Assembly: GCA_051881575.1 (NCBI GenBank)
Contig: JBJEQD010000105.1
Location: 4,316 to 68,315, forward strand
Source of the DNA: Acutalibacteraceae bacterium
GTDB taxonomy: Bacteria > Bacillota > Clostridia > Oscillospirales > Acutalibacteraceae
Direction of reading: 5' to 3'
DNA length: 64,000 nucleotides
The translations under genes were made by a program, and so were the position numbers. The notes beneath the pieces were generated by a model. It did not search any database, had not been told where the DNA came from, and was given only the letters and a program-made list of their open reading frames with translations. Shown here one piece after another: positions 567-43,732 of this stretch. Numbering within the stretch: position 1 is the first letter of the stretch; every line of letters starts with the position of its first letter.

Positions 567-704
567 GGCGTACTCCTTTCGGTTATGTTTATTTAATTAT
601 ACCCGATTAATTTGCCTACTTCAATCGTCAAAATGATGCAAATGTATAATTATTAAATATGCTTTATGAACGCAGATTATCGGTGAAAAAAGCCGAAAAA
701 GCTG

Positions 705-1457
705 TTACATTATTTCATTCAAACATTCCCTGAATTTCGGGAGCCACCATTCTTTATAGCCCGCTTTGGTGGGATGAATTCTGTCAACAAGATAAAGCTT
801 TCGCTCTCCTTGCGTGATTGAGTTAATTTCTTCATCGTTCCATAAATCCAGAACGGTTATATCCCATTTTTTCTGAATCTTCAAAAGCAAATCAACCATT
901 TCGGCGTAATAATCGCTGTCATATCTTGCTTGGGTATAAAACACAACGGGGCAATCCCATGCAGACCTTGCATAAGAGATTATGTATTCAATTGCACCTG
1001 CAACGGTCAGAGTGTCAAAATCGTTCATGTCGAAGCTTTCGGAGATTTCTCCGAGCGGCATTTCCTTTGTTGCGTCGTTGGTTGAAAGCTGACAAACGAA
1101 CGCATCGGCTTTGATGCTTTTATCGATGTTTTTCAGCCTCGAAACATAGGAGTTGCTTTTAACATCAACAAGAGTTGTGCCCGAAACAGCCTCCTTAACG
1201 GCGTTTATGCCGTCGGTTTTTTCAAGATAATCCGCAAAGCTGATACCGAACGAGCCGTAGCCGTAGGTTACGGAACTGCCGAGAAAGATAACCGTTTTTC
1301 CCTTTAATGACGAATCGGCATCGGCTTTTGCACCGTTCATAGAATAATCGCCGTAGTTGCCTTTTGAAAACACGCCGAACATATTGCCCACAAAGCCTCC
1401 CGGAATCATCAATAGAATCAAAATAACCGAAATAATAATTATTGTTTTCTTTTTCAT
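705..1457 (-). CDS. SGNH/GDSL hydrolase with N-terminal membrane anchor
   Basis: FLGSSVTYG, STND and DRIHP blocks; start MKKKTIII at 1457 overlaps the upstream stop (ATGA). Confidence 0.75.
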   Translation of the reverse strand: MKKKTIIIISVILILLMIPGGFVGNMFGVFSKGNYGDYSMNGAKADADSSLKGKTVIFLGSSVTYGYGSFGISFADYLEKTDGINAVKEAVSGTTLVDVKSNSYVSRLKNIDKSIKADAFVCQLSTNDATKEMPLGEISESFDMNDFDTLTVAGAIEYIISYARSAWDCPVVFYTQARYDSDYYAEMVDLLLKIQKKWDITVLDLWNDEEINSITQGERKLYLVDRIHPTKAGYKEWWLPKFRECLNEIM

Positions 1458-2647
1458 TTCTTCACCCTGCCGTAAAGACACCTTACCGGCTCTTTCTCAA
1501 TTACCAATCCGCAGTAATTGCACATAATGCATTTAGCTTCGGGCTGGCCGTTTTTCAGCTTTGCCGCAAGGTCGGGCTCGCAGATAAACGGCCTGCACAT
1601 TGAAACATAATCCGCCTTGCCGTCGGATAAAATCTTTTGCATATCGCAGACTTTATGTATTCCGCCGACAACGATAACGGGAACCGAAACATTTTTCTTT
1701 ATTTTTGCGGCGTTTTCAACATTGAAATTTTCAAGCGGCTTCGGCTGTCTGATTAACGTATTTATCAGATTTGCGGCGGGCAATGCGATTTTATTCAGGA
1801 GCTTCGGGAACGATGCGCACGGCTCTCTGTATCTGAAAACTGCGTCCATCGGCAAATGCTCGCTTCGCATTGTGTTCATTCCGTCCTGAACCGTGCCGCA
1901 GGAAACCTCGATTGCGTCGCATCCTGCCGCTTCAAGCCGTTTGCAGATTTCAACCGAGGATTGAATATTCATTCCGCCTTTTCTGTTATCCTCGGCACTG
2001 ATTTTTATCCATACGGGGAGCTTTGTTGCGGATTTTATGCCTTTTATTATAAGCTCAACCGCTTTGCAACGGTTTTCGAGGCATCCGCCCCACCCGTCTT
2101 TTCTTCTGTTGCCGTAGGGCGAAAGAAAATCGTGAAGCAGATAACCGTGACCGCCGTGAAGCTGAACTGCGTCAAATCCCGCCTTTTCGGCTCTGACGGC
2201 AGCCGAAACAAAATCGTCGATTATGCCGTATATTTCACCATCGGAAAGCTCTTTTGCTTTGTCGGGATAAAAAGCGTGAAAAACATTCGACGGCGCAGCC
2301 TTTTGCGCCCCGATAACCTTTGACGAGGTTTGTCTGCCGCAATGGGCAATCTGGAGCACGATGGGCGTTCCATGGCTGTGAACGGCATCGGTAAGAGCTT
2401 TGTATCCGTCAATCACGCTGTCATCATAAATTTTCAGCATTCTCGGATAGGGCGAAACGCCGTTTCTGCTGACCGCCGCATAGCCCGTGATGATGCACCC
2501 GACCCCATTCTTTGCGAGATGCTCATATTTTGCAATAAGCTTGTCGCTCGGTGCACCGTTTTCGTCCGCAAGCCCGTCATGGGTTGCGCTTCGGATTATT
2601 CTGTTCTTAACTTCAATTCCCGATATTTCCGCTCGGCTGAATAGCAT
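1454..2647 (-). CDS. NADH:flavin oxidoreductase (Old Yellow Enzyme family)
   Basis: NRIIRSAT, QIAHCGR, GFDAVQLHGGHGYLLHDFLSP motifs; likely start MLFSRAE at 2647 with SD AGGGGTG. Confidence 0.9.
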   Translation of the reverse strand: MLFSRAEISGIEVKNRIIRSATHDGLADENGAPSDKLIAKYEHLAKNGVGCIITGYAAVSRNGVSPYPRMLKIYDDSVIDGYKALTDAVHSHGTPIVLQIAHCGRQTSSKVIGAQKAAPSNVFHAFYPDKAKELSDGEIYGIIDDFVSAAVRAEKAGFDAVQLHGGHGYLLHDFLSPYGNRRKDGWGGCLENRCKAVELIIKGIKSATKLPVWIKISAEDNRKGGMNIQSSVEICKRLEAAGCDAIEVSCGTVQDGMNTMRSEHLPMDAVFRYREPCASFPKLLNKIALPAANLINTLIRQPKPLENFNVENAAKIKKNVSVPVIVVGGIHKVCDMQKILSDGKADYVSMCRPFICEPDLAAKLKNGQPEAKCIMCNYCGLVIEKEPVRCLYGRVKK

Positions 2648-2675
2648 ATCTTTCACCCCTTGATTTGATGAAATA

Positions 2676-2704
2676 ATTATATAGGATGATTTCGGATAAT
2701 TCAA
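2676..2704 (-). promoter_or_regulatory. sigma-A type promoter for the OYE-SGNH operon
   Basis: TTGAAT-17-TATAAT on the minus strand. Confidence 0.5.
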
Positions 2705-2744
2705 GTGCTTGGGAAATATCAAGGCAGTTCATATTGCAAAATAG

Positions 2745-2784
2745 TGTCAATAAATGTTGACAATGAACTTAATAATGATAAAAT
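2745..2784 (+). promoter_or_regulatory. sigma-A promoter of the beta-helix gene with an overlapping inverted repeat
   Basis: TTGACA(2757)-16-TAAAAT with TG extension; TGTCAA-N6-TTGACA palindrome covers the -35. Confidence 0.5.
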
Positions 2785-2806
2785 AGACTTGACAGAGGTG
2801 TTGCAA

Positions 2807-3766
2807 ATGAAATTCTATGACATCGGGCAGGATAAAAATATTTATACAGACGGTATCCACGACGACACAAAGGCAATTCAGGCTTGTCTTGACAATATGA
2901 AAGACGGCGGAACGGTTTTCTTCCCCGACGGAACATATCTTATTTCAGCCGCCCTGATTTTTTATTCGGGTCAATGGCTGAAATTTTCCGATAATGCCGT
3001 CTTGCTTCGTTCAAAAGACAGCAATCCCGTGACAAGATATATGCTCGCTTCTTATTCGGAGGGCGATTGGTGCGGATACGACGGCACACATGACGCCGTG
3101 ATTACGGGCGGCATTTTTGACGGAAATGCGGAGCTTGACGAAAACCTGACGATTATCAACACGGTTCATTCAAAAAATATTGTTATCAGAAACTGTAGGT
3201 TTCTTCATTGCGCCAACTGGCATTGCATTGAAATCAATTCCACCGACACTGCCCGGATTGCTGACTGCGTTTTTGAGGGTGCAACATACACATCAATAAG
3301 AGAAGATCTGACAAGCGAGCTTTTGCAGATTGACGCCGCAAATCACGGCGCTTACGGCCCCGTTTACAACTGTGACGGAAAGCACATAGCGCACGCTGTT
3401 GATGACACTCCGTGCAGGAATATTTCCGTTGATTCCTGCATCTTCAAATGCGACGGTTTCCCCGGCATAGGTCACCACGGCGACGCTGAGCATCAAAACA
3501 TTAAAATTGTCAGCAATGTATTCACGGGAGCGTCGGGAAAATTCGGCAAAAGCAGAGGATATATTACTTTCACTCCGAAAGTCCACGGAGTATATGTAGG
3601 CGACAATGCTTTTATTTCTCCTGTCGAAAAAGGAATTAATAATATCGGTGTGATTGCGAATAATCCCGACAAAAAATCAATGATTGCCGAGAATAACACC
3701 TTTATCGGCAATTTCAGCGAATATTTCAAAGGCGGAATAACCGTCGGAGACAATAATGAACATTGA
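2807..3766 (+). CDS. Right-handed parallel beta-helix protein (pectate lyase-3 / GH28-like fold)
   Basis: DGIHDDTKAIQACLD...GGTVFFPDGTYLIS N-terminal motif and repeated beta-helix rungs; SD GAGGTG before ATG 2807. Confidence 0.75.
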   Translation: MKFYDIGQDKNIYTDGIHDDTKAIQACLDNMKDGGTVFFPDGTYLISAALIFYSGQWLKFSDNAVLLRSKDSNPVTRYMLASYSEGDWCGYDGTHDAVITGGIFDGNAELDENLTIINTVHSKNIVIRNCRFLHCANWHCIEINSTDTARIADCVFEGATYTSIREDLTSELLQIDAANHGAYGPVYNCDGKHIAHAVDDTPCRNISVDSCIFKCDGFPGIGHHGDAEHQNIKIVSNVFTGASGKFGKSRGYITFTPKVHGVYVGDNAFISPVEKGINNIGVIANNPDKKSMIAENNTFIGNFSEYFKGGITVGDNNEH

Positions 3767-3790
3767 TATTGCGGTTTCAGCCATAATATG

Positions 3791-14307: not shown

Positions 14308-16293
14308 GTGAAAAAAACAACAAAAATGACTATTGCGATACTTCTAACCATCATTATGGTATTCGGTTCGTTTGGTGCTGGAAACTCTAATCTTTTTTTC
14401 AAGTTGTTTGAGATTAAAGCATCCGGAGTGCAAGCAGGTATATTTCTTTGGCCAGTACCTTCTTCTTATTCTCTGTCACAAGGCTATAGTTCTAGCCATA
14501 AAGCAATAGATATTCAGAAGTGCGCAAACCAAAATGTAATTGCATCTTATTCCGGAGTCGTGTATAAACTTGATTCCGGAACAAATAGTTCAAGTTCAAC
14601 AGATAGCTCATACGGAACAAGCATGATTATCAAGCACAATATTAATGGGAGTGTTTACTATACCCACTATGCTCATATGGTTAAAGATTCAATCCCTCAA
14701 AGGCTCCGAACAATTGGCGCAAGTGTAAGCCAAGGTGAAATCATAGGAAAAGTTGGAAATACAGGAAATGTTTCTGGATCTTCTGGATATCATTTGCATT
14801 TTTCTATTGCAGATAGCACAGGCGTATGGAACGGACGATTCAACAACACTCCAACAGATAGTAGGCACAACATAAATAGTTCTAGCGGTGTGTCATACAG
14901 ATACAGTATTGAACATGAGCACGACTTTAGTGTTTATCTGTATTACTGGGCAAAACATCCTCACTACAATGATTATAAATGCAAATACTGCGATGCTAAG
15001 CAGGAAAACAGAAATGAAACAAATTATGTTGCATCATGTGAATTGTGCAATCACACCCATAGTTATACAGCCACTTCGGCATCATCTGCCACATGTGAGT
15101 CAGGCGGATACACGACATATAACTGTTCATGCGGAGACAGTTATACAACATATACAAACGCCTTAGGCCATAACTACAGTATTTTATCATATAATGAAAA
15201 CGCACATCCTCATTATGCAGTTTACAAATGCAGCAGGTGCAGTTCAACAAAAAGGACTTCAGAAACCGGTTATCTGAAATCATGTATAGATTGTATTTTC
15301 AGCGGTAAACCGGTTTTAACAGTTACACCGGGCACAAGCAAAACAGAAACTATTTTATTGTCAAGCGTTGTAAACGGTGCCGAATATTATGAATATAATA
15401 TTAAAACTTACTACGGCGATGAAAAGGTTCTATTCAGATATAGTGATGAAGGAGAGCCGGTATCTGTCATTCTTGATTCAGGCAAATATAAAGCATATGT
15501 AGTAATTTACGATAGATTAGCGTCGTATACATTAAAAAGTGATGAAGTAATATTCACCGTTGATGGCGTCTCCGAAGAAATAAGTACAACGGCATTCCAA
15601 AACGGATATTCAATATACTTCAACGCTAACGGTGGTTATGGCGCACCGTCGTCTCAAAGCGGAAAAACCTCTTATACAATTCCGCCAACTACGCCCACAC
15701 GAAACGGATATTCATTCCTTGGCTGGTCAAAAAACAGTAGTGCTTCATCTGCAAGCTATAAAGGCGGAGACTTCATTTATCTTGAAAACGACACAACGCT
15801 TTATGCTGTTTGGGAAAAAGATGAAATCTCCGAGGAAACGACAACAGCAATCCGAAACGGATATTCAATATACTTTAACGCTAACGGTGGTTCGGGAGCA
15901 CCGTCGGCTCAAAGTGGAAAAACATCTTATACAATTCCGTCAACAACACCAACAAGAAGTGGATATACATTTCTCGGTTGGTCAGAAAACAGTTCAGCAA
16001 TTTCTGCCGGCTACAAACCCGGTGACACAATAGTGCTCTCAACCGATACAACCCTTTATGCGGTTTGGCAAAAAGCAGAAGAGCCCACTACATCACCCAG
16101 TAATACTTGCCCTAACTGCGGAGAAGAATTCACGAGTGAAGAAGAATACAATGAACATATTTCAAACTGTGACTCAAATAACGGCAATAACAACAATTCG
16201 GGTGTTAGTTTATTTGGATTGATATTAGCATTTTTTGCAAGTATTATAAGCTTTATAGGAATGGTTCTAATGTTTCCGCTTCTTCTGTTTTAA
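14308..16293 (+). CDS. Secreted/surface M23 metallopeptidase with His/Cys-rich repeats, two InlB B-type repeats and a C-terminal hydrophobic tail
   Basis: Signal peptide; HKAID, YAHM, HLHF M23 motifs; two YFNANGG...GY.FLGWS...LYAVW repeats; GTG start with SD GAGGAGG; AT-rich relative to flanks. Confidence 0.85.
   Translation: MKKTTKMTIAILLTIIMVFGSFGAGNSNLFFKLFEIKASGVQAGIFLWPVPSSYSLSQGYSSSHKAIDIQKCANQNVIASYSGVVYKLDSGTNSSSSTDSSYGTSMIIKHNINGSVYYTHYAHMVKDSIPQRLRTIGASVSQGEIIGKVGNTGNVSGSSGYHLHFSIADSTGVWNGRFNNTPTDSRHNINSSSGVSYRYSIEHEHDFSVYLYYWAKHPHYNDYKCKYCDAKQENRNETNYVASCELCNHTHSYTATSASSATCESGGYTTYNCSCGDSYTTYTNALGHNYSILSYNENAHPHYAVYKCSRCSSTKRTSETGYLKSCIDCIFSGKPVLTVTPGTSKTETILLSSVVNGAEYYEYNIKTYYGDEKVLFRYSDEGEPVSVILDSGKYKAYVVIYDRLASYTLKSDEVIFTVDGVSEEISTTAFQNGYSIYFNANGGYGAPSSQSGKTSYTIPPTTPTRNGYSFLGWSKNSSASSASYKGGDFIYLENDTTLYAVWEKDEISEETTTAIRNGYSIYFNANGGSGAPSAQSGKTSYTIPSTTPTRSGYTFLGWSENSSAISAGYKPGDTIVLSTDTTLYAVWQKAEEPTTSPSNTCPNCGEEFTSEEEYNEHISNCDSNNGNNNNSGVSLFGLILAFFASIISFIGMVLMFPLLLF
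15568..16074 (+). repeat. Intragenic tandem duplication (about 258-nt period) encoding InlB B-repeats
   Basis: AAACGGATATTCAATATACTT(C/T)AACGCTAACGGTGGTT occurs in both copies. Confidence 0.85.
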
Positions 16294-16399
16294 TAGGTAA
16301 ACTTAGTTTATTTATAACAAATCAAAAAATTTATCTACACTATTCTGAACGTTTTTTGATAACAAAACTTAGCAAACAAGCCACCAATTGTAGCTTACT

Positions 16400-16446
16400 A
16401 CTTGCACCGCCGTGAATACCATTCGGTAAACGGCGGTGCAATTTTT
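16400..16446 (+). terminator. Terminator after the M23 gene
   Basis: TTGCACCGCCGT...ACGGCGGTGCAA stem followed by TTTTT. Confidence 0.7.
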
Positions 16447-16511
16447 AAGGGCTAATCCGTGTGCTCGCCAGCCATTATTTGCATAGAATTGTTGATATAT
16501 AACGATTTTTT

Positions 16512-17018
16512 GTAGGGAACGCCGTCCTCGGCGTTCCGTGGGGTTTGGTGCGTTTCACGGACAACCGCAAGGCTACGGATTGATTTCAATTTGTAGCGGA
16601 CGATGCTCACATCGTCCAAAATGCAGAAATAACGGATTTTTCAGGATTCAAGGTAGGGCGGGGGCTCGCTCCCGCCGTTTTGGATTTATAAAGAATATAT
16701 CATTTATAGAAAAATTTAACAAATTATTCGCCCATGGCGAATTGGTTCGTCGGGGACGCCGAACCCTACGGATTTTACCGTTAGCAGTTCATATTTCCCG
16801 GAACGCTGAGGACAGCGTTCCCTACGAGAAAATCGTACTGATATCAGGCGTTTTCAAGCAAAAACCGTAGGGGACGGGTCGCCTGTCCCGCATAAAAAAC
16901 CGTTTCAACGGATTTTAAAAATTTGTGCTTTTTCAAGCGGGAGAACGCAGTTCTCCCCTACGGTGTTGCCGAGGTTTTTCTGCTGTTTTCCCGGAACGCC
17001 GGGGACGGCGTTCCCTAC
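16512..17018. repeat. Cluster of nine GTAG-type REP hairpins (REPIN/BIME-like)
   Basis: GTAG+hairpin at 16512, 16593, 16653, 16867; hairpin+CTAC ending at 16576, 16769, 16825, 16961, 17018; first and last units are 26-bp inverted copies (1 mismatch). Confidence 0.85.
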
Positions 17019-17068
17019 TGAATTTTGTGCTTTTGGGGATAATATCGTTTATCCGTAAGTTAATCAAT

Positions 17069-17305
17069 CCTCCGTCATTTGCTTCGCAAATGCCACGCTG
17101 ACGGCGCCGTCCCCCTTTGTCTGCTTCGCAGACATTTCCCCCACACTGCGGGGGAATCGACCTTTTCAAAGGAGGCCAACGAAGCAGTAACCTACTGCAT
17201 AGGCTCCTTTGGCAACTCCCTCCGTCACGGCTGCCGCCTCGGTCGGTGCTTCTGAGCTTTCGCTCAGAGGTTGCCACCGGCAACCCGCACCCTCAAGAGG
17301 GAGGC
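17069..17305. repeat. Two tandem CC(C)TCCGTCA...hairpin...GAGGC cruciform repeats, each with an inner hairpin module
   Basis: Shared start CCTCCGTCA (17069, 17219) and end GGAGGC; internal hairpins at 17076-92, 17118-34, 17136-56, 17251-68, 17270-84. Confidence 0.65.
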
Positions 17306-17396
17306 AGATCGCTGCCCGTAGGGCTGAGGATTGGAAAGGACGCTGAATAATCAAGGTTCACGGTCACACAGTTCGTTCCGCTGAAAAGCGAAATGC

Positions 17397-17507
17397 AATT
17401 CGTTCTTTCATATGCCGCAGGCATATTTCATATTTGCGAAGCAAATATTTCACAGCAAAGCTATTTCACTCGTTCCGAAGGAACGAATTTATTGAAAAAG
17501 CACTTCC
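17397..17507. repeat. TTTCA-punctuated array of short triloop hairpins
   Basis: TTTCA-[TATGCC GCA GGCATA]-TTTCA-[TATTTGC GAA GCAAATA]-TTTCA-[AGC AAA GCT]-TTTCA-[TCGTTCC GAA GGAACGA]. Confidence 0.75.
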
Positions 17508-17601: not shown

Positions 17602-18519
17602 TTATCTTTCAATAGACCAAAGAATCATATCTATTTTTCTTGGTGTCCAAAAATCTGTATTGAATTTATGATTTAACTCATCAGCTTTTTCTCTCATTAT
17701 TTCTATCAAAATGACACCGTCGCTTTTTTTCAAGGAATTGGGATTCATTTTATGCAGTTCATTGCAATATTTGGAGATATATAATTCTTTAAGTCGTTTT
17801 GCAACAAATTGGTCTATTGTTCCGAATTTTTGAGGAAAAATCACCGCTAATAATCCGCTTGCACCCGCTGCGCCAAGTCCGTGTATCTTGGTTGCCAAAT
17901 CTAAGCATTGTTCAATATCGTTATGATTCATTGTAAATATCTGAATTTGAATTTCGGCAAGTAAAGATAAGTTATCTTCGTCAACATATTTTTTTAATGC
18001 TTTTCTCGTTGTTGCCAAACGATTTTTTTGCGTGTATTTCCATACAAAATATTTGTCGTATAAGAAATCATAAAAATCTGTAACTGATAAAGCTTTTATT
18101 TCGTCTGCATTAAGATTTTCAATATATTTTTCTATTGCAATTTGTTCTTCCTTTAAAATTTCGTAATAATGGTTTAGTGCTCTTTCCCAATCCTCTTTTG
18201 AACCGTTTTCCCATAGAAATTTGAGAGATTTTTCTTCTGTAGCATAGCTTTCAAAATTTTTTATTGTCCTATTATCATTATCAATAAGACTTTGCTTTTT
18301 TTCATAATAACACACTTCGTCTGTATTTAATTGCATTGATACTTCATCAAATTTAATTTCATCTATACCATTATTTTTGGATTCGTTTTTGAAGTTTATA
18401 ATTCTTCCTGCTTTATAGCTTTTATGTAGCTTAACTATCAAAAAAATAACTGCCAAGCCAACAAACGCAATAAGAATATAGCTCCCGATTTCTTCAAAAA
18501 GACTATCAAGAATTGTCAT
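17602..18519 (-). CDS. Hypothetical protein: N-terminal TM helix + C-terminal HhH-GPD-like (DNA glycosylase-like) domain
   Basis: TM segment at residues ~12-30; IHGLGAAGASGLL hairpin motif, GTIDQFV acidic motif and terminal IDMILW; strongly AT-rich; SD GAGGTG. Confidence 0.55.
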   Translation of the reverse strand: MTILDSLFEEIGSYILIAFVGLAVIFLIVKLHKSYKAGRIINFKNESKNNGIDEIKFDEVSMQLNTDEVCYYEKKQSLIDNDNRTIKNFESYATEEKSLKFLWENGSKEDWERALNHYYEILKEEQIAIEKYIENLNADEIKALSVTDFYDFLYDKYFVWKYTQKNRLATTRKALKKYVDEDNLSLLAEIQIQIFTMNHNDIEQCLDLATKIHGLGAAGASGLLAVIFPQKFGTIDQFVAKRLKELYISKYCNELHKMNPNSLKKSDGVILIEIMREKADELNHKFNTDFWTPRKIDMILWSIER

Positions 18520-18667
18520 ATATAATGCACCTCAAAATCTTGCTTTAAATAATTGTATCATAAAAAACAATGTTTGTCTATTTTATAAAAAATAATTTAT
18601 AATTAAGAATTTTCACACAGTATGGATGTTTGAAAATCCTCGAAACATCGGTATTTAAGTAATAAAA

Positions 18668-18743
18668 AATTCGTTTTTCAAATTTGCAAAACAGCTGTTT
18701 CTCTTGTTCTGCAAGGAACGAATTTCATTGAAAAAGCACTTCC
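18668..18743. repeat. Eroded second copy of the TTTCA hairpin array
   Basis: AAGGAACGAATTT(C)ATTGAAAAAGCACTTCC at 18713-18743 matches 17478-17507 with one indel; AATTCGTT start also shared. Confidence 0.75.
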
Positions 18744-18759: not shown

Positions 18760-18868
18760 TTGGCCCGCCCGAAGGGATTCGATTCGCACGCCTGCGGGCG
18801 TTTGGTCGCTCGCGGTCACAACGCTCCACCGGAGCGTTGCTCTGTGCCGCTCGTCCTTCGAATCCCTT
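18760..18868 (-). repeat. Duplicated tRNA-Arg 3' end with inverted T-arm and 74-bp insert
   Basis: 18760-18782 identical to 18915-18937 (23 bp); AAGGGATTCGA...TCGAATCCCTT inverted arms. Confidence 0.85.
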
Positions 18869-18873
18869 ATCAT

Positions 18874-18915: not shown

Positions 18916-18992
18916 TGGCCCGCCCGAAGGGATTCGAACCCCCGATCTTCAGAATCGGAATCTGCTGCGTTATCCAACTGCGCCACGAGCGG
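18916..18992 (-). tRNA. tRNA-Arg (anticodon CCG)
   Basis: Cloverleaf CCGCTCG...CGGGCGG-G-CCA; anticodon loop TT-CCG-AT; T-loop TTCGAAT; encoded CCA; promoter TTGACT-17-TATATT at 19041-19013. Confidence 0.95.
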
Positions 18993-35466: not shown

Positions 35467-35562
35467 AGTGCAATTGATATTTCAAGACAATGAATTGGAC
35501 AACTTCCGGTTTTGTGATAAATTAACGAATTAATCAGTGCAACAAAAAATACGCAAGCATCA

Positions 35563-35910
35563 GTAGGGAACGCCGTCCTCGGCGTTCCGTGGGATTTAAT
35601 ATGTTTTCACGGACAGCCGCAAGGCTACGAATTGTTTTTCATTTTGTAGTGGACGATGCCCACATCGTCCAAACGAACTTTGTTTCATTATTCGCCTGCG
35701 GCGAATTGGTTCGTCGGGGACGCCGAACCCTACGGATTTTTGTGAATTTGTCCGTTTTCAGGTAGCAATCGTAGGGGACAGTCACCCGTCCCGCATAAAA
35801 ACCGTGCCATTGTTCTTATGTTTTACCGGAACGCTGGGGACAGCGTTCTCTACGAGGACTTTGTGCATTTTCGGGTTCTTTCAGGCGGGCGAACACAGTT
35901 CGCCCCTAAC
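35563..35910. repeat. Second GTAG-REP cluster, homologous to 16512-17018
   Basis: 31-bp identity at 35563 vs 16512; 41-bp identity at 35700 vs 16736; seven units. Confidence 0.85.
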
Positions 35911-36051
35911 GATATTGTCACTGATTTCGGCTGTTTTTTCATAACACCGAAGACGGAATTTCTGCATTTCAATGCCGGAGAAATAAATCCGCTACGACAT
36001 GGTGGAATTTTGCGATTTGAAACAAAATCGGAATTTGGAGGTCACAAGGAT

Positions 36052-36675
36052 ATGAGACAAAAATATACATTCTTTGATGGCGGTACAATAGAATTTGATG
36101 ACACAAGAAGCGTGAAAGAACTCATTGCATACGCTTTCGATTGCTTTGGGTATTATGAGCCATTTGGCATTGATGTAGTATCATTGTTTCAACCTCATCA
36201 CTCTAAAACAGATACCGGGTGGTTTACTACTGATATCAAACGAAGTTGTGCAGATGAAATAGAATATCCGAATGAATTGTGTTTTGCGTATTATCTTCCT
36301 GACACATTCTATTTTGCTGAAGGTGGCTGGGGGCACCATATGAATGATCTTGGTAACCATCCCGTAATACCTAATCCGATTTCTCTTAGGATTAGATTTG
36401 ATGGATTCGATAACACGGTTATAATTAACGGTAAATATTGCTTCCATGATATCATTAATGCTTTGATAAGAACCGGTTATATATCCGATAAATGTAAATC
36501 TTTGAAAGTGTTACCCGTAGGTTGTGCCAATAAATCTTATTCCATCCCCTTTTCCGATCCTATAATGAGATTCTCGCTAACAGATTTTGAAAAAGCTATC
36601 CAACAGTATAATTCAAAATACATCAAGTCAGAACAAGGCGATTGCATATACCATGAAATTTTGCAAATTTGCTAA
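36052..36675 (+). CDS. Hypothetical protein (207 aa)
   Basis: Open AT-rich frame from MRQKYTFF with SD-like GGAGG/AAGGA; the ORF-track extension to 35818 runs through REP DNA and is unlikely. Confidence 0.6.
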   Translation: MRQKYTFFDGGTIEFDDTRSVKELIAYAFDCFGYYEPFGIDVVSLFQPHHSKTDTGWFTTDIKRSCADEIEYPNELCFAYYLPDTFYFAEGGWGHHMNDLGNHPVIPNPISLRIRFDGFDNTVIINGKYCFHDIINALIRTGYISDKCKSLKVLPVGCANKSYSIPFSDPIMRFSLTDFEKAIQQYNSKYIKSEQGDCIYHEILQIC

Positions 36676-36889
36676 TAAACACTACAACCAAAAAAATGTT
36701 AAACTATTAATATAAACAATCTATTGAGCAACATAGCTGACAAAAAATATATTAATAATTTTGACAATGTGATATATACAAAAAGGAAAATACATTTCAG
36801 CTTTTGACATTATTGCAAGATATGATAAAGCAAATAAGCATTCTAGAGAACGAACTTTCAAAACTTCCAATTCGTGAGGTATTAACAAT

Positions 36890-37234
36890 ATGCAAAACAA
36901 CAGAGAATTTTGGGAAGCATTGGATGAACTGGTAGCCAATTCGGAAATTATAATTGACAGGCCAAAAGGAACTGCACATCCCAAGTATCCCGATTTCATT
37001 TATAAAGTTGATTACGGATATCTGAAAGATACATCATCCATGGACGGTGCAGGGATAGATGTATGGGTTGGAAGCGGCGAAAAAAAGATTGATGCGATAA
37101 TGTGTATTGTTGATTTGATAAAAAAGGATTCGGAAATCAAAATACTGATTGGATGCACGGAAGAAGAAAAGAAAATAATATATGAAACACATAACGAAAC
37201 CCGGTTTATGAAAGGTGTTTTAATACGCCGATAA
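36890..37234 (+). CDS. Small inorganic pyrophosphatase-like protein
   Basis: IIDRPKG..HP.YP.FIYKVDYGYL..T.SMDG.GIDVWVG. Confidence 0.8.
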   Translation: MQNNREFWEALDELVANSEIIIDRPKGTAHPKYPDFIYKVDYGYLKDTSSMDGAGIDVWVGSGEKKIDAIMCIVDLIKKDSEIKILIGCTEEEKKIIYETHNETRFMKGVLIRR

Positions 37235-37275
37235 ATTCCGCTTTATTAACAAGTATTCGGAAAGGAGGAGCCCGA

Positions 37276-37668
37276 ATGTTTTCTCCGACGCCTTTCGGCA
37301 CGATGCTTAAACAGCTGCGTGAAGAAAAAGGTCTGTCGCAGGGTGAGCTTGCCGAGGAGCTGAACAAAACAGCTCAGTACATCAGCAACATCGAAAAAGG
37401 CAAAAACAATGCGCCGCCAAATGAGCACGATTTGCAGCTTTTGATAAAAAAGCTTGGTTTGATGGGCGATGACGCCGAAAAATTCAGGATGCTCGCCTAT
37501 GCCGACCGTGGCATGCTTCCGCCCGAAATGTTCAGCTATGTTTTTGAACGGCCGTCGCTTATCGGGCTTATCCGCTGTGCCATGAACAATGAAATCTCCG
37601 AAGATTATTGGAACTGTTCAATCAAAAAAATAAACAACGCCGACATAATCGGCAGAAAGGAAAACTGA
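37276..37668 (+). CDS. XRE-family helix-turn-helix regulator
   Basis: LKQLREEKGLSQGELAEELNKTAQYISNIEKG. Confidence 0.85.
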   Translation: MFSPTPFGTMLKQLREEKGLSQGELAEELNKTAQYISNIEKGKNNAPPNEHDLQLLIKKLGLMGDDAEKFRMLAYADRGMLPPEMFSYVFERPSLIGLIRCAMNNEISEDYWNCSIKKINNADIIGRKEN

Positions 37669-37669
37669 T

Positions 37670-39091
37670 ATGAGCCAAACTCCCGATTATGTTAAATATG
37701 CCGCTTCCGTCGTTCCGAGCGAACGGCAGATAAAATGGCAGGAGCTTGAATTCTATTCATTCATTCATTTCGGAATGAACACATTCACCAATTCCGAATG
37801 GGGCAACGGCAACGACGACCCCGAGCTTTTCAACCCCGAAAAGCTGGACTGCCGCCAATGGGCGAAGGTCTGCCAGCTTGCGGGAATGAAAGGCATGATT
37901 CTGACTGCAAAGCACCATGACGGCTTCTGCCTTTGGCCGACTGCCTACACGGATTACTGCGTTCGTTCAAGCCTCTGGAAAGACGGCAAGGGCGATGTTG
38001 TTGCCGAATGTGCAAAGGCTTGCAAAGAATTCGGCTTGAAATTCGGCATATATCTTTCGCCTTGGGACAGGCACGAGGCAACCTACGGCTCGGGCGAAGC
38101 GTATAACCGTTTCTTCAAAAATCAGCTTCGTGAGCTTCTGACCGCTTACGGTGATATCTTCTGCGTTTGGTTTGACGGAGCGTGCGGCGAAGGCCCCAAC
38201 GGCAAGAAACAAGAATACGATTGGGAGGGCTATTACAAGCTCATCCGTGAGCTTCAGCCCAACGCAACCATTAATGTCTGCGGCCCCGATGTCCGCTGGT
38301 GCGGCAATGAGGCGGGCGTTTGCAGAAAGAGCGAATGGAGCGTCGTTCCCTATTGGCATTCAAACTATGAGCTGATTAACGCCGCAAGTCAGAGCGATGT
38401 TTCAAAGCCGCCTAAAAAAATAAATCCCACCGCCCTTGATCTGGGCAGCAGGAAAGCAATTAAAAAATGCAGCAAGCTGATTTGGTACCCCGCCGAGGTC
38501 AACACCTCGATAAGAAAAGGCTGGTTTTATCACGCCGACGAGGATTATTCGGTCAAACCGCTCTCAAAGCTTATGGAAATTTACTATAACTCGGTCGGTT
38601 CAAACGCCAATTTCCTTTTGAACATTCCCCCGACACCCGAGGGAAAATTCCACGAAAAGGATGTTGAAACCCTGCTCTCAATGGGTGCTCAGCTTGAAAT
38701 AGATTTCAACGAAAATCTTGCCGATGATTCGATAATGACGGATAACCGCCATCTTGACGAAAAGCACACGGGTCAGGCGGCTCTCAGCCATGACCCCGAG
38801 GATTACTGGCACTCGGGCGACAATCCCGAGGGCGCAGAGCTGATTCTTGACCTCGGAGACGACTATGATATCGATAAAATCGTTCTCGGAGAGCATATCA
38901 GAACGGGTCAGCAGATTGAAAAATTTTCGCTTTATGCTGAAATCGACGGAAAATGGAAAAAAATATTCTCGGGAACGATTATCGGCTACAAGCGTATCTG
39001 CCGCTTCAAGGAAATGAGAATTCAGCGCTTCAAGCTCGTCATTGAGCAGGCAAGATGCTTTGCAACAATCGCAAAATTTGAGGCTTATTAA
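37670..39091 (+). CDS. Alpha-L-fucosidase (GH29) with C-terminal F5/8-type domain
   Basis: FIHFGMNTF, LTAKHHDGFCLWPT, YLSPWDRH, VWFDGA, SIRKGWFYH. Confidence 0.92.
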   Translation: MSQTPDYVKYAASVVPSERQIKWQELEFYSFIHFGMNTFTNSEWGNGNDDPELFNPEKLDCRQWAKVCQLAGMKGMILTAKHHDGFCLWPTAYTDYCVRSSLWKDGKGDVVAECAKACKEFGLKFGIYLSPWDRHEATYGSGEAYNRFFKNQLRELLTAYGDIFCVWFDGACGEGPNGKKQEYDWEGYYKLIRELQPNATINVCGPDVRWCGNEAGVCRKSEWSVVPYWHSNYELINAASQSDVSKPPKKINPTALDLGSRKAIKKCSKLIWYPAEVNTSIRKGWFYHADEDYSVKPLSKLMEIYYNSVGSNANFLLNIPPTPEGKFHEKDVETLLSMGAQLEIDFNENLADDSIMTDNRHLDEKHTGQAALSHDPEDYWHSGDNPEGAELILDLGDDYDIDKIVLGEHIRTGQQIEKFSLYAEIDGKWKKIFSGTIIGYKRICRFKEMRIQRFKLVIEQARCFATIAKFEAY

Positions 39092-39429
39092 TCCCACTCT
39101 TTCCAGATTTCGGGGCAATAGCCGACGGTTGCCTGCTTACCGTTGCGGACAATCGGGGTTTTGAAAAGCTCGCCGTGTTCGAGCAGCTTTTCCTCAACCG
39201 CCTCTTTGCTTGCAAGATATTTGATAAAATGCTTTTCGTAAGCCTTTGATTTTTCGTTGATAAGGGCTTCCATTGAGCCGACAGCGGCTTTGACGCTGTT
39301 GTATTCACCCTTGCTCATGCTCTTTTGAGAAAGGTCGATGAATTGAAACTTGATTCCCCTCTCCTTGAAATATCTCTGCGCTTTTTTGGTGTCAAAGCAT
39401 TTATTTGTTCCGAAAATCTGTATATTCAT
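39088..39429 (-). CDS. ArsC/Spx-like arsenate reductase family protein
   Basis: MNIQIFGTNKCFDTKKAQRYFKERGI, KTPIVRNG. Confidence 0.85.
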   Translation of the reverse strand: MNIQIFGTNKCFDTKKAQRYFKERGIKFQFIDLSQKSMSKGEYNSVKAAVGSMEALINEKSKAYEKHFIKYLASKEAVEEKLLEHGELFKTPIVRNGKQATVGYCPEIWKEWD

Positions 39430-39458
39430 TAATATCACTCCGTTTTTGGTATAATACT

Positions 39459-40799
39459 ATGGTAATAAATATTCCTCAACAAGTCAATAGAGCAATAAAA
39501 ATTCTTTCTTCATGCGGTCATTCGGCTTTCGTTGTCGGCGGGGCTGTCAGAGACATGCTCATGGGCGTTTCGGCTCACGATTGGGACATTGCGACCTCCG
39601 CTCAGCCGAGCGAAACCCTTGCCGCTTTCAAGGATTTCAGAACGGTTGAAACGGGAATCAAGCACGGAACGGTCACGGTTATTATCGATGGAATGAGCCT
39701 TGAGATAACCACTTTCCGAATTGAAAAAGGCTATTCCGATAACCGACATCCCGACAAGGTTGAGTTTGCCTCGGATATCTGCGAGGATCTCTCACGGCGG
39801 GATTTCACCGTTAACGCCATTGCGTATTCCCCCGAATCGGGCTTCGTTGACCCGTTCGGCGGCAAAGAGGATATTGAAAGTCAAATAATCAGATGCGTCG
39901 GAGAAGCGGACAGGCGTTTCGGCGAAGATGCGCTCAGAATTCTTCGTGCATTGAGGTTTTCGGCAACTCTCGGATTTGAGATTGAGGCTGAAACGGCGGC
40001 AAGCATTCACAGAAACTTCAGGCTTTTGGAGCATATTTCCTCCGAAAGAATATTTGTTGAAATGTCGAAGCTTCTCTGCGGCAAAAACGCAGGCAAAATT
40101 CTTAGAGAATATGAAGATGTGATTTTCTTCATCTTCCCTGAGCTTCGGGCGATGAAAGGCTGCAATCAAAATCACGAAAGGCATATTTTCGATGTCTGGG
40201 GGCACACGGTCAAGGCGGTTGAAACGGTAAGTCCCTCTCCCGAGCTACGCTTCGCCATGCTTTTTCATGATTCGGGAAAGCCCGAATGCAAGACAACCGA
40301 TGAAAACGGAGTTGACCATTTTTATTCTCACGCAAAAAAAAGCAGAATTATTGCTTATAATATTTTGACAAGGCTCAAAACCTCGTCAAAATTCCGTGAA
40401 CGGGTTTGCAATCTCGTTGAATATCACGATGTTCTGCCCGATAAAATAAGCAAAAAGACCTATAAAAAATATATTTCCCTGCTCGGATTTGAAACCGTAA
40501 AACAGCTTTTTGAGGTTCGTGCCGCCGATGTTTCGGCTCAGAACCCCGCCTTTTTGAACGAAAGCCTGAAAGCAAACGAAAAAGGGCTTGAAATTCTCGG
40601 CGATATTGAAAAAGAAAACGCCTGCATGAAGCTCGGCGATCTTGCAATCGGCGGAAAAGAGCTTGAAAACCTCGGATTCAAGCCCTCGCCCGAAATGGGA
40701 AAAATTCTGAATATTCTCCTTGACGAGGTCATGGAAGAAAAACTTGAAAACACTAAGGACGCTCTGCTCGGCAGAGCCATACAGCTGAAACAGCGCTGA
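39459..40799 (+). CDS. cca: CCA tRNA nucleotidyltransferase with HD domain
   Basis: VGGAVRD, DWDIATS, DLSRRDFTVNA, EDALRILRALRF, HDSGKP. Confidence 0.92.
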   Translation: MVINIPQQVNRAIKILSSCGHSAFVVGGAVRDMLMGVSAHDWDIATSAQPSETLAAFKDFRTVETGIKHGTVTVIIDGMSLEITTFRIEKGYSDNRHPDKVEFASDICEDLSRRDFTVNAIAYSPESGFVDPFGGKEDIESQIIRCVGEADRRFGEDALRILRALRFSATLGFEIEAETAASIHRNFRLLEHISSERIFVEMSKLLCGKNAGKILREYEDVIFFIFPELRAMKGCNQNHERHIFDVWGHTVKAVETVSPSPELRFAMLFHDSGKPECKTTDENGVDHFYSHAKKSRIIAYNILTRLKTSSKFRERVCNLVEYHDVLPDKISKKTYKKYISLLGFETVKQLFEVRAADVSAQNPAFLNESLKANEKGLEILGDIEKENACMKLGDLAIGGKELENLGFKPSPEMGKILNILLDEVMEEKLENTKDALLGRAIQLKQR

Positions 40800-40810
40800 A
40801 AGGAGCCGCT

Positions 40811-41860: not shown

Positions 41861-41920
41861 TCATCGCTTCACAAATCAGACAACTACGAGTCAGAGACAT
41901 TCTTTGACTGCTCAAACCTC

Positions 41921-41972
41921 CATAAAATCATTGGGGCAGCGTCGGCTTCGGCGCTGCCCCGATGATTTTATA
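41921..41972. terminator. Bidirectional terminator between the fem gene and rarA
   Basis: ATAAAATCATTGGGGCAGCG...CGCTGCCCCGATGATTTTAT long stem. Confidence 0.75.
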
Positions 41973-41980
41973 ATCTTTAT

Positions 41981-43249: not shown

Positions 43250-43276
43250 AAAAAATCACTGCTTTCTGAGATGCTG

Positions 43277-43732
43277 TCAAAGTTTTGAAACTGCCGAAGA
43301 ATATTTTTCGGTAATGATAAGATAAATCGTGCCGTCCGAGGCTTCGGCAACCTCGCTTTGGGCGGTTTTTGCGTAGTTTTCGGGCGAATATGACTGCGTG
43401 TTGCTCTTGACGCTTTCAAGATAGGTTTCGAGAGAAGCAATAACACCCGCCTTGTCTGCGCCGTCTTTCAGCCTGATAAGAATAATTGCGTCAGCGTTGA
43501 TATCGGGTTCTGCCGCTTCGGCAAAAACATATTCCTCAAACCGAGAAAGGTCAACGCCGAACAGCGTTTCAATCAGGCTGTCGGGCATGACCGACATTTC
43601 GGGCATACCGTCCGAAGCCGAAACGGATGCGTAAATTTCACTCAGCGGTTTCCGGGCTTCTTTGCCCGTGCAGGAAGCAAGCAGGCAAAGGCAGACCGCC
43701 GCCGCAAGAAAAACCGAGATAACTCTCTTCAT
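43277..43732 (-). CDS. DUF4358-like lipoprotein
   Basis: Lipobox LLASC; LFGVD..FEEY, YSPENYAK. Confidence 0.7.
   Translation of the reverse strand: MKRVISVFLAAAVCLCLLASCTGKEARKPLSEIYASVSASDGMPEMSVMPDSLIETLFGVDLSRFEEYVFAEAAEPDINADAIILIRLKDGADKAGVIASLETYLESVKSNTQSYSPENYAKTAQSEVAEASDGTIYLIITEKYSSAVSKL

What the first reader, a model, noticed from the sequence alone, without database searches (positions are those of the whole stretch)
16512..17018. A 507-bp train of about seven different GTAG-REP types bounded by inverted copies of one REP
Seen: nine GTAG/CTAC-footed hairpins with different stems (GGAACGCCG, GGACGATG, GGCGGG, GGTTCG, GGGACGGG, GGGAGAAC and others) separated by AT-rich spacers. 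The first (16512-37) and last (16993-17018) are 26-bp inverted repeats with one mismatch. Known: GTAG-family REPs are substrates of RAYT/TnpA(REP) Y1 transposases, and described REPINs/BIMEs use one or two REP types. Inference: a composite REPIN that has collected REPs of many specificities, implying several RAYTs or one promiscuous enzyme. No RAYT gene is in the window.
Basis: partly seen in the sequence, partly recalled or inferred. Interest (0 to 1): 0.7.

Follow-up and report, generated by a model that had tools for sequence, protein, structure and literature searches.

The report
Mixed REP hairpin array, Clostridia
The 507-bp stretch is a real cluster of small GTAG-footed DNA hairpins (REPs) of about seven kinds, one copy of a modular repeat family in gut Clostridia, and each kind of hairpin also occurs, in frame and twice, inside the gene of its own subfamily of REP-associated transposase (RAYT) in related bacteria.

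Summary
Window 16512-17018 has eight intact GC-rich hairpins with a GTAG/CTAC foot and one decayed one; shuffles give 0.02. The outer two are 27-nt inverted copies with one mismatch.

It is not a one-off. A paralogous train lies at 35563-35964. The same order of hairpin types, 1+ 2- 3+ 5- 7+ 6- 8- 1-, recurs in related Acutalibacteraceae/Oscillospiraceae genomes. Read depth in a close relative suggests tens of copies per segment.

No RAYT gene is in the window. RAYT-like genes are common in the lineage (closest solved structure: E. coli TnpA-REP, 4ER8). They carry the same hairpins inside the ORF, twice and inverted, flanking the HUH motif. Reading each window hairpin as codons predicts peptide pairs found in separate RAYT subfamilies. 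HP7 gives VGDGSPVP/GTGDPSPT, which I predicted before finding it.

This favours several cognate RAYTs over one promiscuous enzyme. The set in this genome could not be determined.

Best reading: a BIME-like array of several REP classes, grown by adding REPs beside REPs and by copying multi-REP blocks. This is a new variant of a known kind. The in-gene REP pairs are the more surprising result.

The parts
16394..16449 (+). Intrinsic terminator of the upstream M23-peptidase/Listeria-Bacteroides-repeat gene (14308-16293). The stem is GCACCGCCGT...ACGGCGGTGC followed by a T-run. It lies before the train, so the train is not needed to terminate that gene.
   Evidence: (I3)
16512..16537 (+). HP1: GTAG + GGAACGCCG-TCCT-CGGCGTTCC. 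Left terminal REP. Read as codons it gives VGNAVLGVP / GTPRTAFPT.
   Evidence: (dG -12.3)
16558..16576 (-). HP2: decayed REP (CGGACAACCGCAAGG^CTAC). Seven nt of the 3' arm are deleted. The same deletion is present in site B and in L052.
16593..16617 (+). HP3: GTAGC + GGACGATG-CTCA-CATCGTCC. It matches the in-gene hairpins of the RAYT subfamily VGxDAHIx / GTMWASSPT.
16653..16676 (+). HP4: GTAGG + GCGGGGG-CTCG-CTCCCGC. It is absent from site B and from most other copies, so it is an insertion into the canonical array. It is the only unit that looks like a terminator.
   Evidence: (joint 16621>16723)
16726..16742 (.). Small conserved palindrome ATTCGCC-NNN-GGCGAAT that always precedes HP5 in module A.
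16744..16769 (-). HP5: GGTTCGTCG-GGGA-CGCCGAACC + CTAC. Right end of the conserved module A (HP1+ HP2- HP3+ HP5-).
16800..16825 (-). HP6: GGAACGCTG-AGGA-CAGCGTTCC + CTAC. A one-pair stem variant of the HP1 type.
   Evidence: (D1, D3)
16867..16889 (+). HP7: GTAG + GGGACGGG-TCG-CCTGTCCC. Read as codons it gives VGDGSPVP / GTGDPSPT, identical to RAYT P0250.
16939..16961 (-). HP8: GGGAGAAC-GCA-GTTCTCCC + CTAC. The site B copy carries a compensated pair change (GGGCGAAC...GTTCGCCC), which matches RAYT GRTQFAPT.
16993..17018 (-). HP9: GGAACGCCG-GGGA-CGGCGTTCC + CTAC. Right terminal REP and inverted copy of HP1. The identical 26-mer flanks classical REPtron RAYTs in L132 and L198.
   Evidence: (I2)
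17058..17400 (.). Continuation of the repeat-rich, strongly structured zone. It holds other small hairpins without a GTAG foot. 17225-17309 is a separate repeat family found next to trains in L017, L079 and L042.
35563..35964 (+). Site B, the paralogous train in the canonical order: HP1+ 35563-35588; HP2- remnant 35610-35628; HP3+ 35646-35671; small palindrome 35690-35706; HP5- 35708-35733; HP7+ 35771-35792; HP6- 35829-35853; HP8- 35887-35909 (foot mutated to CTAA); decayed HP9 35941-35964.

Best explanation
The region is a cluster of repetitive extragenic palindromes of the GTAG (RAYT/TnpA-REP-associated) superfamily. The host is an uncultured Oscillospirales (Acutalibacteraceae-like) gut bacterium. 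The cluster is built from several REP classes.

It is one copy of a modular array family. The canonical order is HP1+ HP2- HP3+ HP5- HP7+ HP6- HP8- HP1-. This copy has gained HP4 and has HP6 and HP7 in swapped order.

Shown here: the hairpins, their feet, their many copies, the recurrent order, and block-level copying. Also shown: each hairpin class is identical or nearly identical to a hairpin pair that sits in frame inside the gene of a distinct RAYT subfamily.

Inferred mechanism: RAYTs are HUH/Y1 enzymes that bind the folded REP on single-stranded DNA and cut beside it, using GTAG as a guide. This is established for E. coli, Stenotrophomonas and Marinomonas enzymes (PMC8266576). Such enzymes would add REPs of their own class next to existing REPs, so arrays accumulate classes from RAYTs that coexist or succeeded one another. 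Whole multi-REP blocks are then copied to new intergenic sites, either by the same chemistry acting on the outer HP1-type pair or by recombination. The array sits after the upstream gene's own terminator in a convergent intergenic gap. No cellular function is needed to explain it, and none is excluded.
For: Hairpins and statistics.

Second copy in the window: identity is 88% over HP1-HP3 including spacers, and 82-85% for the HP5, HP6 and HP7 blocks.

Dispersal: more than 114 genome loci for the HP1 pattern in Ruminococcus flavefaciens, Oscillospiraceae and Acutalibacteraceae. There are 498 GTAG hairpins in 772 kb of those loci, commonly in mixed trains of 2-10. Depth in run X9 is 600-3775 over the train against about 45 in the flank.

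Recurrent order in L028 (twice), L017, L020, L010 and L040. Window A, window B and L052 share the same 7-nt deletion in HP2, which shows block-level copying.

RAYT link: the genes in L012, L025 and L047 contain GTAGGGAACGCCG...CGGCGTTCC twice, inverted and in frame. NCBIfam REP_Tyr_transpos scores E 7.6e-18. The best solved relative is TnpA-REP 4ER8 by sequence and by fold.

Virtual peptides of every window REP match a RAYT within 0-2 of 8 residues, and HP7 matches exactly at both sites.

Of 294 RAYTs with both peptide motifs, in 242 the two peptides can be encoded by one DNA read in both directions, against 44 with shuffled pairing.

REPs are added beside REPs even inside ORFs (tandem REP peptides in P0017, P0052, P0064, P0097).

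Classical REPtrons are flanked by exactly HP9's 26-mer (L132, L198).

Literature: one tnpA-REP per REP type, and several types per genome (PMC6006769, PMC3686654); clusters are frequent in GTAG families (PMC3733652).
Against: No RAYT is in the window, and the RAYT set of this genome could not be retrieved. RAYT-like contigs in runs of the closest organism had low depth, so they cannot be assigned to it.

No insertion/empty-site polymorphism of a single REP was seen between strains. The difference from L052 at site B involves whole genes as well.

Mobility is inferred from the copy pattern, not observed. The loci were found by searching for HP1, so counts of the other types are biased.

The RAYT family scores below the NCBIfam and Pfam curated cut-offs. 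No enzyme of this clade has been assayed.
Confidence: 0.75

Rival explanations
1. The whole 507-bp array is a single non-autonomous mobile element, a giant REPIN or MITE. It would be moved as a unit by the HP1-type RAYT acting on the inverted terminal HP1/HP9 pair, and the inner hairpins would be passengers.
For: The terminal arms are 27 nt with one mismatch. Arrays bounded by inverted HP1-type REPs recur (L028 645-1036, L010, site B with a decayed HP9). Spacers are conserved between copies, and the HP2 deletion is shared by copies at unrelated loci.
Against: Copies differ in content and order. HP4 is present or absent, HP6 and HP7 are swapped, and many different joints between modules appear. 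No full-length copy of site A was found; the longest matches are about 190 bp. Module A (HP1..HP5) is conserved far better than the right half. In some arrays the outer HP1-type REPs are direct, not inverted (L079, L006). This reading partly overlaps with the best explanation rather than excluding it.
Confidence: 0.3
2. One promiscuous RAYT mobilises all the hairpin classes. It would recognise only the GTAG foot and a generic GC-rich stem.
For: All classes share the GTAG foot and a G-rich stem base. Some RAYTs carry two different stems in one gene (P0098/L118; P0067 mixes site-1 and site-2 types). L138 has an HP8-type RAYT about 850 bp from type 1/6 REPs. Stenotrophomonas TnpA-REP tolerates several stem changes (PMC8266576).
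Against: The hairpin pairs inside RAYT genes covary with the subfamily: 146 distinct pairs, 82% self-consistent. Each window class has its own matching subfamily. Published systems have one tnpA-REP per REP family, and loop bases matter in group 3 (PMC6006769, PMC8266576).
Confidence: 0.15
3. The array is primarily a functional RNA or transcript element. It could be a multi-hairpin non-coding RNA, a terminator or mRNA-stabiliser stack, or part of a larger structured RNA that includes the neighbouring Gut-1 motif.
For: The hairpins keep their pairing through compensated changes, as in HP8 A/B and GGAACG versus GGTTCG. The zone 17060-17340 folds with z -4.9 to -5.7. Gut-1 RNA lies at 17420-17495. 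REPs elsewhere act on mRNA stability (PMC3733652).
Against: No Rfam family covers the train, even at E<=5. The feet point both ways (+ + + - - + - -), so no single strand carries a uniform motif. The order and content of modules vary between copies. The upstream gene has its own terminator before the train, and only HP4 looks like a terminator. No RNA runs were available. Compensated stems are equally expected for a DNA hairpin read by an enzyme.
Confidence: 0.1
4. The 27-nt inverted repeats flank an invertible DNA switch (inverton).
For: Near-perfect inverted repeats lie 453 nt apart, and there are weak promoter-like matches inside.
Against: The repeat belongs to a family with more than 100 dispersed copies. 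No recombinase gene lies nearby. No strand-switch joints appeared among the listed joints, although contigs are poor evidence for that. The same arms occur in direct orientation in other arrays.
Confidence: 0.03

Closest known systems
E. coli BIMEs (clusters of REPs) and the TnpA-REP/RAYT REPtron (PDB 4ER8; PMC3333891, PMC3479197)
   Same: Short GC-rich palindromes with a 5' GTAG foot, clustered in alternating orientation in intergenic gaps after genes. The associated enzyme family is the closest solved relative by sequence (E 4.4e-9) and by fold (TM 0.56-0.60).
   Different: E. coli uses one REP family (Y, Z1, Z2) with bulged stems, and its REPs flank the tnpA-REP gene. Here 5-8 classes with perfect 8-9 bp stems are mixed in one array in a fixed modular order. 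The host is a Clostridia member. The cognate hairpins lie inside the RAYT ORF.
Multi-class REP/RAYT systems of Stenotrophomonas maltophilia and Pseudomonas fluorescens (group 3 RAYTs; SMAG repeats; PMC3686654, PMC3733652, PMC8266576)
   Same: Short perfect palindromes (8-bp stem, 3-4-nt loop) with a GTAG foot. There are many classes per genome, each with a cognate RAYT, and syntenic RAYTs associated with different REP classes ('orthoswitch'). Clusters and head-to-head dimers are common.
   Different: In those species the classes are mostly dispersed as singletons or same-class dimers, and the REPs flank the RAYT gene. A conserved heterotypic array of about 8 hairpins, copied as blocks, and in-frame REP pairs inside the RAYT are not described in the papers I could read.
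REPINs (Bertels and Rainey; PMC3116915, PMC5581495)
   Same: Inverted pairs of REPs, thought to be the unit mobilised by single-copy, vertically inherited RAYTs. The R. flavefaciens RAYT here is single-copy and syntenic (dnaN-recF-remB-RAYT-gyrB).
   Different: A REPIN is about 100 nt and folds as one long hairpin. This array spans 507 bp, is asymmetric and holds other classes. Only RAYT groups 2 and 3 were reported with abundant REPs, and Clostridia were mentioned only for group 1.
IS200/IS605 insertion sequences
   Same: An HUH/Y1 enzyme and subterminal hairpins with a guide tetranucleotide at the foot. The predicted fold matches IS608/ISDra2 TnpA.
   Different: No transposase lies between the hairpins of the array. 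The hairpins are far more numerous than the genes. The RAYT genes sit in conserved housekeeping contexts.

Membership tests
REP (repetitive extragenic palindrome), GTAG superfamily | 20-40 nt palindrome able to form a stem-loop | tested here: met
   Eight hairpins with 8-9 bp stems and 3-4 nt loops; ssDNA dG -6.4 to -12.3 kcal/mol
REP (repetitive extragenic palindrome), GTAG superfamily | Conserved unpaired GT(A/G)G tetranucleotide at the 5' foot | tested here: met
   GTAG (or CTAC on the other strand) at all nine units; 9 words against 1.06 expected
REP (repetitive extragenic palindrome), GTAG superfamily | High copy number, dispersed, mostly intergenic | tested here: met
   More than 114 genome loci and more than 120 metagenome loci for HP1-type patterns. 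Depth is 13-84 times the flank in run X9. Both window copies are intergenic. The census of the window's own genome was not possible.
REP (repetitive extragenic palindrome), GTAG superfamily | Association with a RAYT/TnpA-REP gene carrying the same REP | tested here: met
   Met in the lineage, not in this genome. In-gene pairs occur in L012, L025, L116-L119, L122, L131, L138 and L247. Classical flanking occurs in L132 and L198.
REPIN | Two REPs of one class in inverted orientation, separated by a short spacer, folding into one long hairpin; the doublet is the replicating unit | tested here: not met
   The terminal arms are inverted, but they are 453 nt apart and the interior is asymmetric and mixes classes. 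Copies differ in content.
BIME (bacterial interspersed mosaic element) | Cluster of REPs in alternating orientation with recurrent linker motifs | tested here: met
   Orientation is + - + + - - + - - (including the decayed HP2). Spacers are conserved in module A across six copies. It differs from E. coli BIMEs in the number of classes.
RAYT / TnpA-REP (for the associated proteins found in related genomes) | HUH motif and catalytic Tyr in an IS200-like core, with RAYT-specific motifs; closest to TnpA-REP rather than to IS200 transposases | tested here: inconclusive
   HxH and Y..NP motifs are present. NCBIfam REP_Tyr_transpos gives 64.8 bits, below the 80-bit cut-off, but far above IS200 (17.8 bits). 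The PDB best hit is 4ER8 by profile and by fold. Sources name members 'RayT'.
RAYT / TnpA-REP (for the associated proteins found in related genomes) | Single copy, vertically inherited, not on mobile elements | tested here: met
   The R. flavefaciens gene is always found in dnaN-S4-recF-remB-RAYT-gyrB (23 contigs). P0250 lies between pflB and pflA.
RAYT / TnpA-REP (for the associated proteins found in related genomes) | Sequence-specific cleavage and joining of the single-stranded cognate REP | not testable with these tools
   Needs purified protein and oligonucleotide assays
Integron attC array | 60-140 nt imperfect palindromes with R''/L''-L'/R' boxes (GTTRRRY) separating promoterless cassettes | tested here: not met
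   The hairpins are 22-26 nt perfect palindromes with GTAG feet, and no ORFs lie between them

The most novel reading that the evidence does not exclude
In this large RAYT clade the enzyme's cognate REP pair lies inside its own reading frame, in two surface loops that bracket the HUH-bearing segment. That hairpin-bounded segment behaves as an exchangeable specificity cassette. Two R. flavefaciens strains with 96-100% identical recF/remB and gyrB flanks differ by 20-37% across exactly this part of the RAYT gene, and both hairpins switch together from GGAACGCCG to GGGAGGCCG. On this reading, heterotypic trains like the one in the window record several such specificities, coexisting or successive, each writing its own hairpin next to older ones. 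The REP-recognition module and the REP would then travel together, a form of REP/RAYT co-evolution not described in the literature I could search.
Probability: 0.35. Interest if true: 0.8.

Novelty: new variant of a known kind. Interest (0 to 1): 0.6.

Why it matters
REP/RAYT systems have been worked out almost entirely in Proteobacteria. There the REPs flank the RAYT gene, and arrays use one family. This window shows a REP system in gut Clostridia that has many hairpin classes and a conserved array of mixed classes.

The search for its enzyme showed that thousands of RAYT-family genes encode their own target hairpins in frame. That gives a simple sequence-only rule: translate a REP in the GTA|GGN frame to pair an orphan REP class with its likely RAYT subfamily.

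It also offers a natural system to ask three questions. How does REP specificity change ('orthoswitch')? Does a RAYT act on its own gene? Are REP arrays recombination hot spots at the edges of variable gene islands?

There is a practical point too. These arrays break short-read assemblies and create spurious ORFs, such as 16538-16870 and the N-terminal extension of 35818-36675.

Tried and rejected
1. Known RNA families. Rfam at gathering score and at E<=5 finds nothing on either train. It finds only Gut-1 at 17420-17495 and tRNA-Arg.

2. Terminator stack. Only HP4 fits, and the upstream gene has its own terminator at 16394-16449.

3. Relic RAYT pseudogenes. tblastn and a RAYT profile hit only the hairpin-coded peptides, never the spacers.

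4. Inverton. There is no recombinase nearby and the arms belong to a dispersed family.

5. attC or CRISPR-like array. The sizes and motifs do not fit.

6. Finding the RAYT of the window's own genome.
- The window's proteins trace only to a 3.8-kb Logan contig.
- Laying runs of the closest organism on an R. flavefaciens RAYT gave only REP matches plus two short low-depth RAYT-like C-termini.

7. RNA evidence. No RNA runs were available.

8. A metagenome scan for the module A junction (TTATTCGCCNNNGGCGAATNGGTTCGTCG) found nothing. The composite seems confined to lineages that are not in that collection.

9. Literature. Three full-text searches and targeted reading found no description of REP arrays in Oscillospiraceae or of REP pairs inside RAYT ORFs. 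The library is incomplete, so this is not proof of novelty.

Full report
**What is there**

Window 16512-17018 lies in a 1.3-kb gap between two genes that converge on it. The upstream gene (14308-16293, +) encodes an M23 peptidase with Listeria-Bacteroides repeats. The downstream gene (17602-18519, -) encodes a 305-aa protein with no family match. The upstream gene has its own intrinsic terminator at 16394-16449 (I3).

The train holds eight intact GC-rich hairpins. Each has an 8-9 bp stem and a 3-4 nt loop, and each abuts GTAG on one strand or the other. A ninth foot belongs to a hairpin that has lost its 3' arm. Orientations are + (-) + + - - + - -.

Dinucleotide-preserving shuffles of the 507 bp give 0.02 such hairpins against 8 observed. 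In the whole 64-kb window, 12 of 13 such hairpins lie in two places. The outer units are 27-nt inverted copies that differ only in one loop base.

Two adjustments apply:
- HP1, HP9, HP6 and HP5 are variants of one architecture (GTAG-GGWWCG.YG-TCCY).
- The repeat-rich zone continues to about 17460.

**It is a member of a repeat family, at two levels**

A second train at 35563-35964 has the same hairpin types. Identity is 88% across HP1-HP3 including the spacers, and 82-85% for the HP5, HP6 and HP7 blocks.

They come from Ruminococcus flavefaciens, other Oscillospiraceae, Acutalibacteraceae and Faecousia, plus two Armatimonadota MAGs. Those loci hold 498 GTAG-footed hairpins in 772 kb, often as mixed trains of 2-10 units.

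L052 (MAG210) is 95% identical to window 36862-43449. The host is therefore an uncultured Oscillospirales bacterium from animal gut, and runs holding the region are mostly pig-gut metagenomes.

In run X9, from the closest organism, depth over the train is 600-3775 against about 45 in the flanking gene. That suggests tens of copies per segment, with the caveat that the run may not be pure.

In the genomes nearest to the window the types recur in one order: 1+ 2- 3+ 5- 7+ 6- 8- 1- (L028 twice, L017, L020, L010, L040 and window site B). Site A is that array plus HP4, with HP6 and HP7 swapped. Many alternative joints between modules are seen.

Module A (HP1, HP2, HP3, a small ATTCGCC...GGCGAAT palindrome, HP5) is conserved through its spacers. 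Site A, site B and L052 share the same 7-nt deletion in HP2, whereas L028, L017 and L020 have it intact. Whole blocks, not just single hairpins, have therefore been copied within this lineage.

**The enzyme link**

No RAYT is in the window: a profile built from 12 RAYTs finds nothing. Three of the R. flavefaciens loci brought in by the HP1 pattern matched inside a gene for a 174-178 aa HUH/Y1 protein.
- NCBIfam's REP_Tyr_transpos model scores it at E 7.6e-18. That is below the curated cut-off but far above IS200.
- The best solved relative is E. coli TnpA-REP bound to a REP (4ER8), both by profile (E 4.4e-9) and by predicted fold (TM 0.56-0.60).
- Public sources call members 'RayT'.
- The family is very large: 35,750 50%-identity clusters at E<=0.001.

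In these genes the REP occurs twice, inverted and in frame. GTAGGGAACGCCGcccTCGGCGTTCC is read as VGNAALGVP after the first strand. GGAACGCCGagggCGGCGTTCCCTAC is read as GTPRAAFPT after the HUH strand.

Both peptides are insertions relative to 4ER8. Both fall in low-confidence loops of the AlphaFold model (residues 44-51 and 100-113).

**Each hairpin class in the train has its own RAYT subfamily**

Reading the window's hairpins in the same two frames gives 'virtual peptides'. For HP7 this predicted VGDGSPVP / GTGDPSPT. I wrote that prediction before the representative search returned P0250, which has exactly both. Its gene (L119 8001-8522, between pflB and pflA) contains GTAGGGGACGGGTCTCCCGTCCC and its inverse.

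Other matches:

| Window hairpin | Matching RAYT peptide or protein |
|---|---|
| HP8 | GRTQFAPT (P0115, P0154, L138) |
| HP3 | VGDDAHIV / GTMWASSPT (P0123, P0208, P0119) |
| HP1 / HP9 | VGNAVLGV / TPRAAFPT |
| HP5 | SSGTPTPT (P0209) |
| HP4 | most like VGEGLAPP / GGASPSPT (P0245) |

Across 384 family members, 294 have both peptide motifs, in 146 distinct pairs. In 242 of them the two peptides can be encoded by one DNA read in both directions, against 44 when the pairs are shuffled. The in-gene hairpins are therefore matched pairs that covary with the subfamily.

Some genes carry extra REP-coded peptides in tandem at the first site (P0017, P0052, P0064, P0097). These are miniature trains inside an ORF, and they show that REPs are added next to REPs.

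Classical REPtrons also exist. In L132 and L198 (55-58% GC) a RAYT without internal hairpins is flanked by exactly HP9's 26-mer.

**How it most likely works**

Experiments on E. coli, Stenotrophomonas and Marinomonas enzymes establish the chemistry. TnpA-REP binds the folded REP on single-stranded DNA. It cuts at CT (or CA) beside the REP, with GTAG acting as a guide, and it can rejoin strands. In the short-palindrome group, loop bases are read (PMC8266576). Surveys find one tnpA-REP per REP type and several types per genome (PMC6006769, PMC3686654).

By inference, several RAYT specificities in this lineage, coexisting or successive, each deposit their own hairpin beside existing ones. Multi-REP blocks are then copied to new intergenic sites. 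This accounts for five features:
- the mixed classes;
- the feet that point both ways;
- the recurrent but editable order;
- the decayed members (HP2, and HP9 of site B);
- the location after a terminator.

Mobility itself was not observed. The only orthologous comparison (site B against L052) shows homology ending exactly after the GTAG of HP3. The adjacent genes differ too, so recombination that uses the arrays as portable homology is an equally good account of that event.

**Rivals**

- A single giant element bounded by HP1 and HP9 fits the terminal repeat and the block copying. It does not fit the variable content, or the arrays whose outer REPs are direct.
- One promiscuous RAYT is disfavoured by the subfamily-specific pairs. 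It is not excluded, because some genes carry two different stems (L118, P0067).
- An RNA role cannot be excluded for lack of RNA data. It is not needed, and no Rfam family matches.
- An inverton is unlikely.

**Known or new**

REPs with GTAG feet, RAYTs, clusters, many classes per genome and switches of REP class at syntenic RAYTs are all known. Three things are not in the papers I could read:
- a REP system of this kind in Oscillospirales (Firmicutes are absent from the GTAG survey PMC3733652, and Clostridia appear only as hosts of group 1 RAYTs in PMC5581495);
- a conserved array of about eight mixed-class hairpins copied as blocks;
- cognate REP pairs inside the RAYT reading frame.

One further case stands out. 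Two R. flavefaciens strains have flanks that are 96-100% identical. The first 400 nt or so of their RAYT genes, which include both hairpins and the HUH region, are only 63-80% identical, and both hairpins change together.

I rate the train itself as a new variant of a known kind. The in-gene pairs are the part a specialist would find surprising.

Noticed in passing
L012 5365-5898; L122 2501-3025; L131 2501-3019; L119 8001-8522; L116 481-990; L117 2321-2797; L118 2506-3009; L138 1337-1834: RAYT-family genes carry their cognate GTAG hairpin twice, inverted and in frame, bracketing the HUH motif. The peptide pairs covary across 146 distinct pairs. Both peptides are insertions relative to E. coli TnpA-REP and fall in predicted loops.
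   Followed up: yes
L122 versus L131 (R. flavefaciens, dnaN-S4-recF-remB-RAYT-gyrB): The RAYT is a tightly packed single-copy gene of the replication-origin gene cluster. Between strains the flanks are 96-100% identical, but RAYT nt 1-400 are 63-80% identical, and both in-gene hairpins switch from GGAACGCCG to GGGAGGCCG. This looks like replacement of a hairpin-bounded cassette.
   Followed up: partly
window 18760-18870 (-), next to tRNA-Arg(CCG) 18916-18992; L006 4753-5010: A copy of the 3' end of the neighbouring tRNA, plus an inverted copy of its T-arm, encloses a conserved 75-nt GC-rich core and is followed by a terminator. The same core (92-95% identical) occurs twice in tandem in L006, flanked there by the 3' end of a different neighbouring tRNA. 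No Rfam family matches; it folds at -50 kcal/mol. Its nature is unknown; it may be a tRNA-linked element or mimic.
   Followed up: partly
window 17420-17495 (-): Gut-1 RNA motif (RF01706, 53.2 bits, just above the gathering score) lies directly beside the repeat zone. A weak partial second match is at 18605-18730. Its ATTTGCTTCGCAAAT hairpin also occurs, inverted, at about 17076-17092.
   Followed up: partly
window 17058-17400: A strongly structured stretch (RNA fold z -4.9 on + and -5.7 on -) made of small hairpins without GTAG feet. 17225-17309 is a separate repeat found next to trains in L017, L079 and L042 at 91-95% identity. Depth is 5-16 times the flank in X9.
   Followed up: partly
window 35499-36862 versus L052 687-1414: In a 95%-identical relative, the genes on both sides of the site B train differ, and the train is shorter with other REP types (GGAGGCG, and the HP7 type inverted). 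Homology ends exactly after the GTAG of HP3. REP arrays sit at the edges of low-GC variable islands (14-19 kb and 34-37 kb).
   Followed up: partly
L132 1582-2331; L198 291-1014; L035, L036: The identical 26-nt REP (GTAGGGAACGCCGTCCCCGGCGTTCC) flanks classical REPtron RAYTs in 55-58% GC metagenome contigs and occurs in Armatimonadota MAGs. One REP sequence is therefore shared across very distant hosts.
   Followed up: no
window 16538-16870 (+), 16933-17283 (-), 35818-36051 (+): Long ORFs run through the trains, because GC-rich hairpins in frame avoid stop codons. These are likely spurious calls. The real start of the 35818-36675 ORF is probably the ATG at 36052, behind a GGAGG.
   Followed up: no
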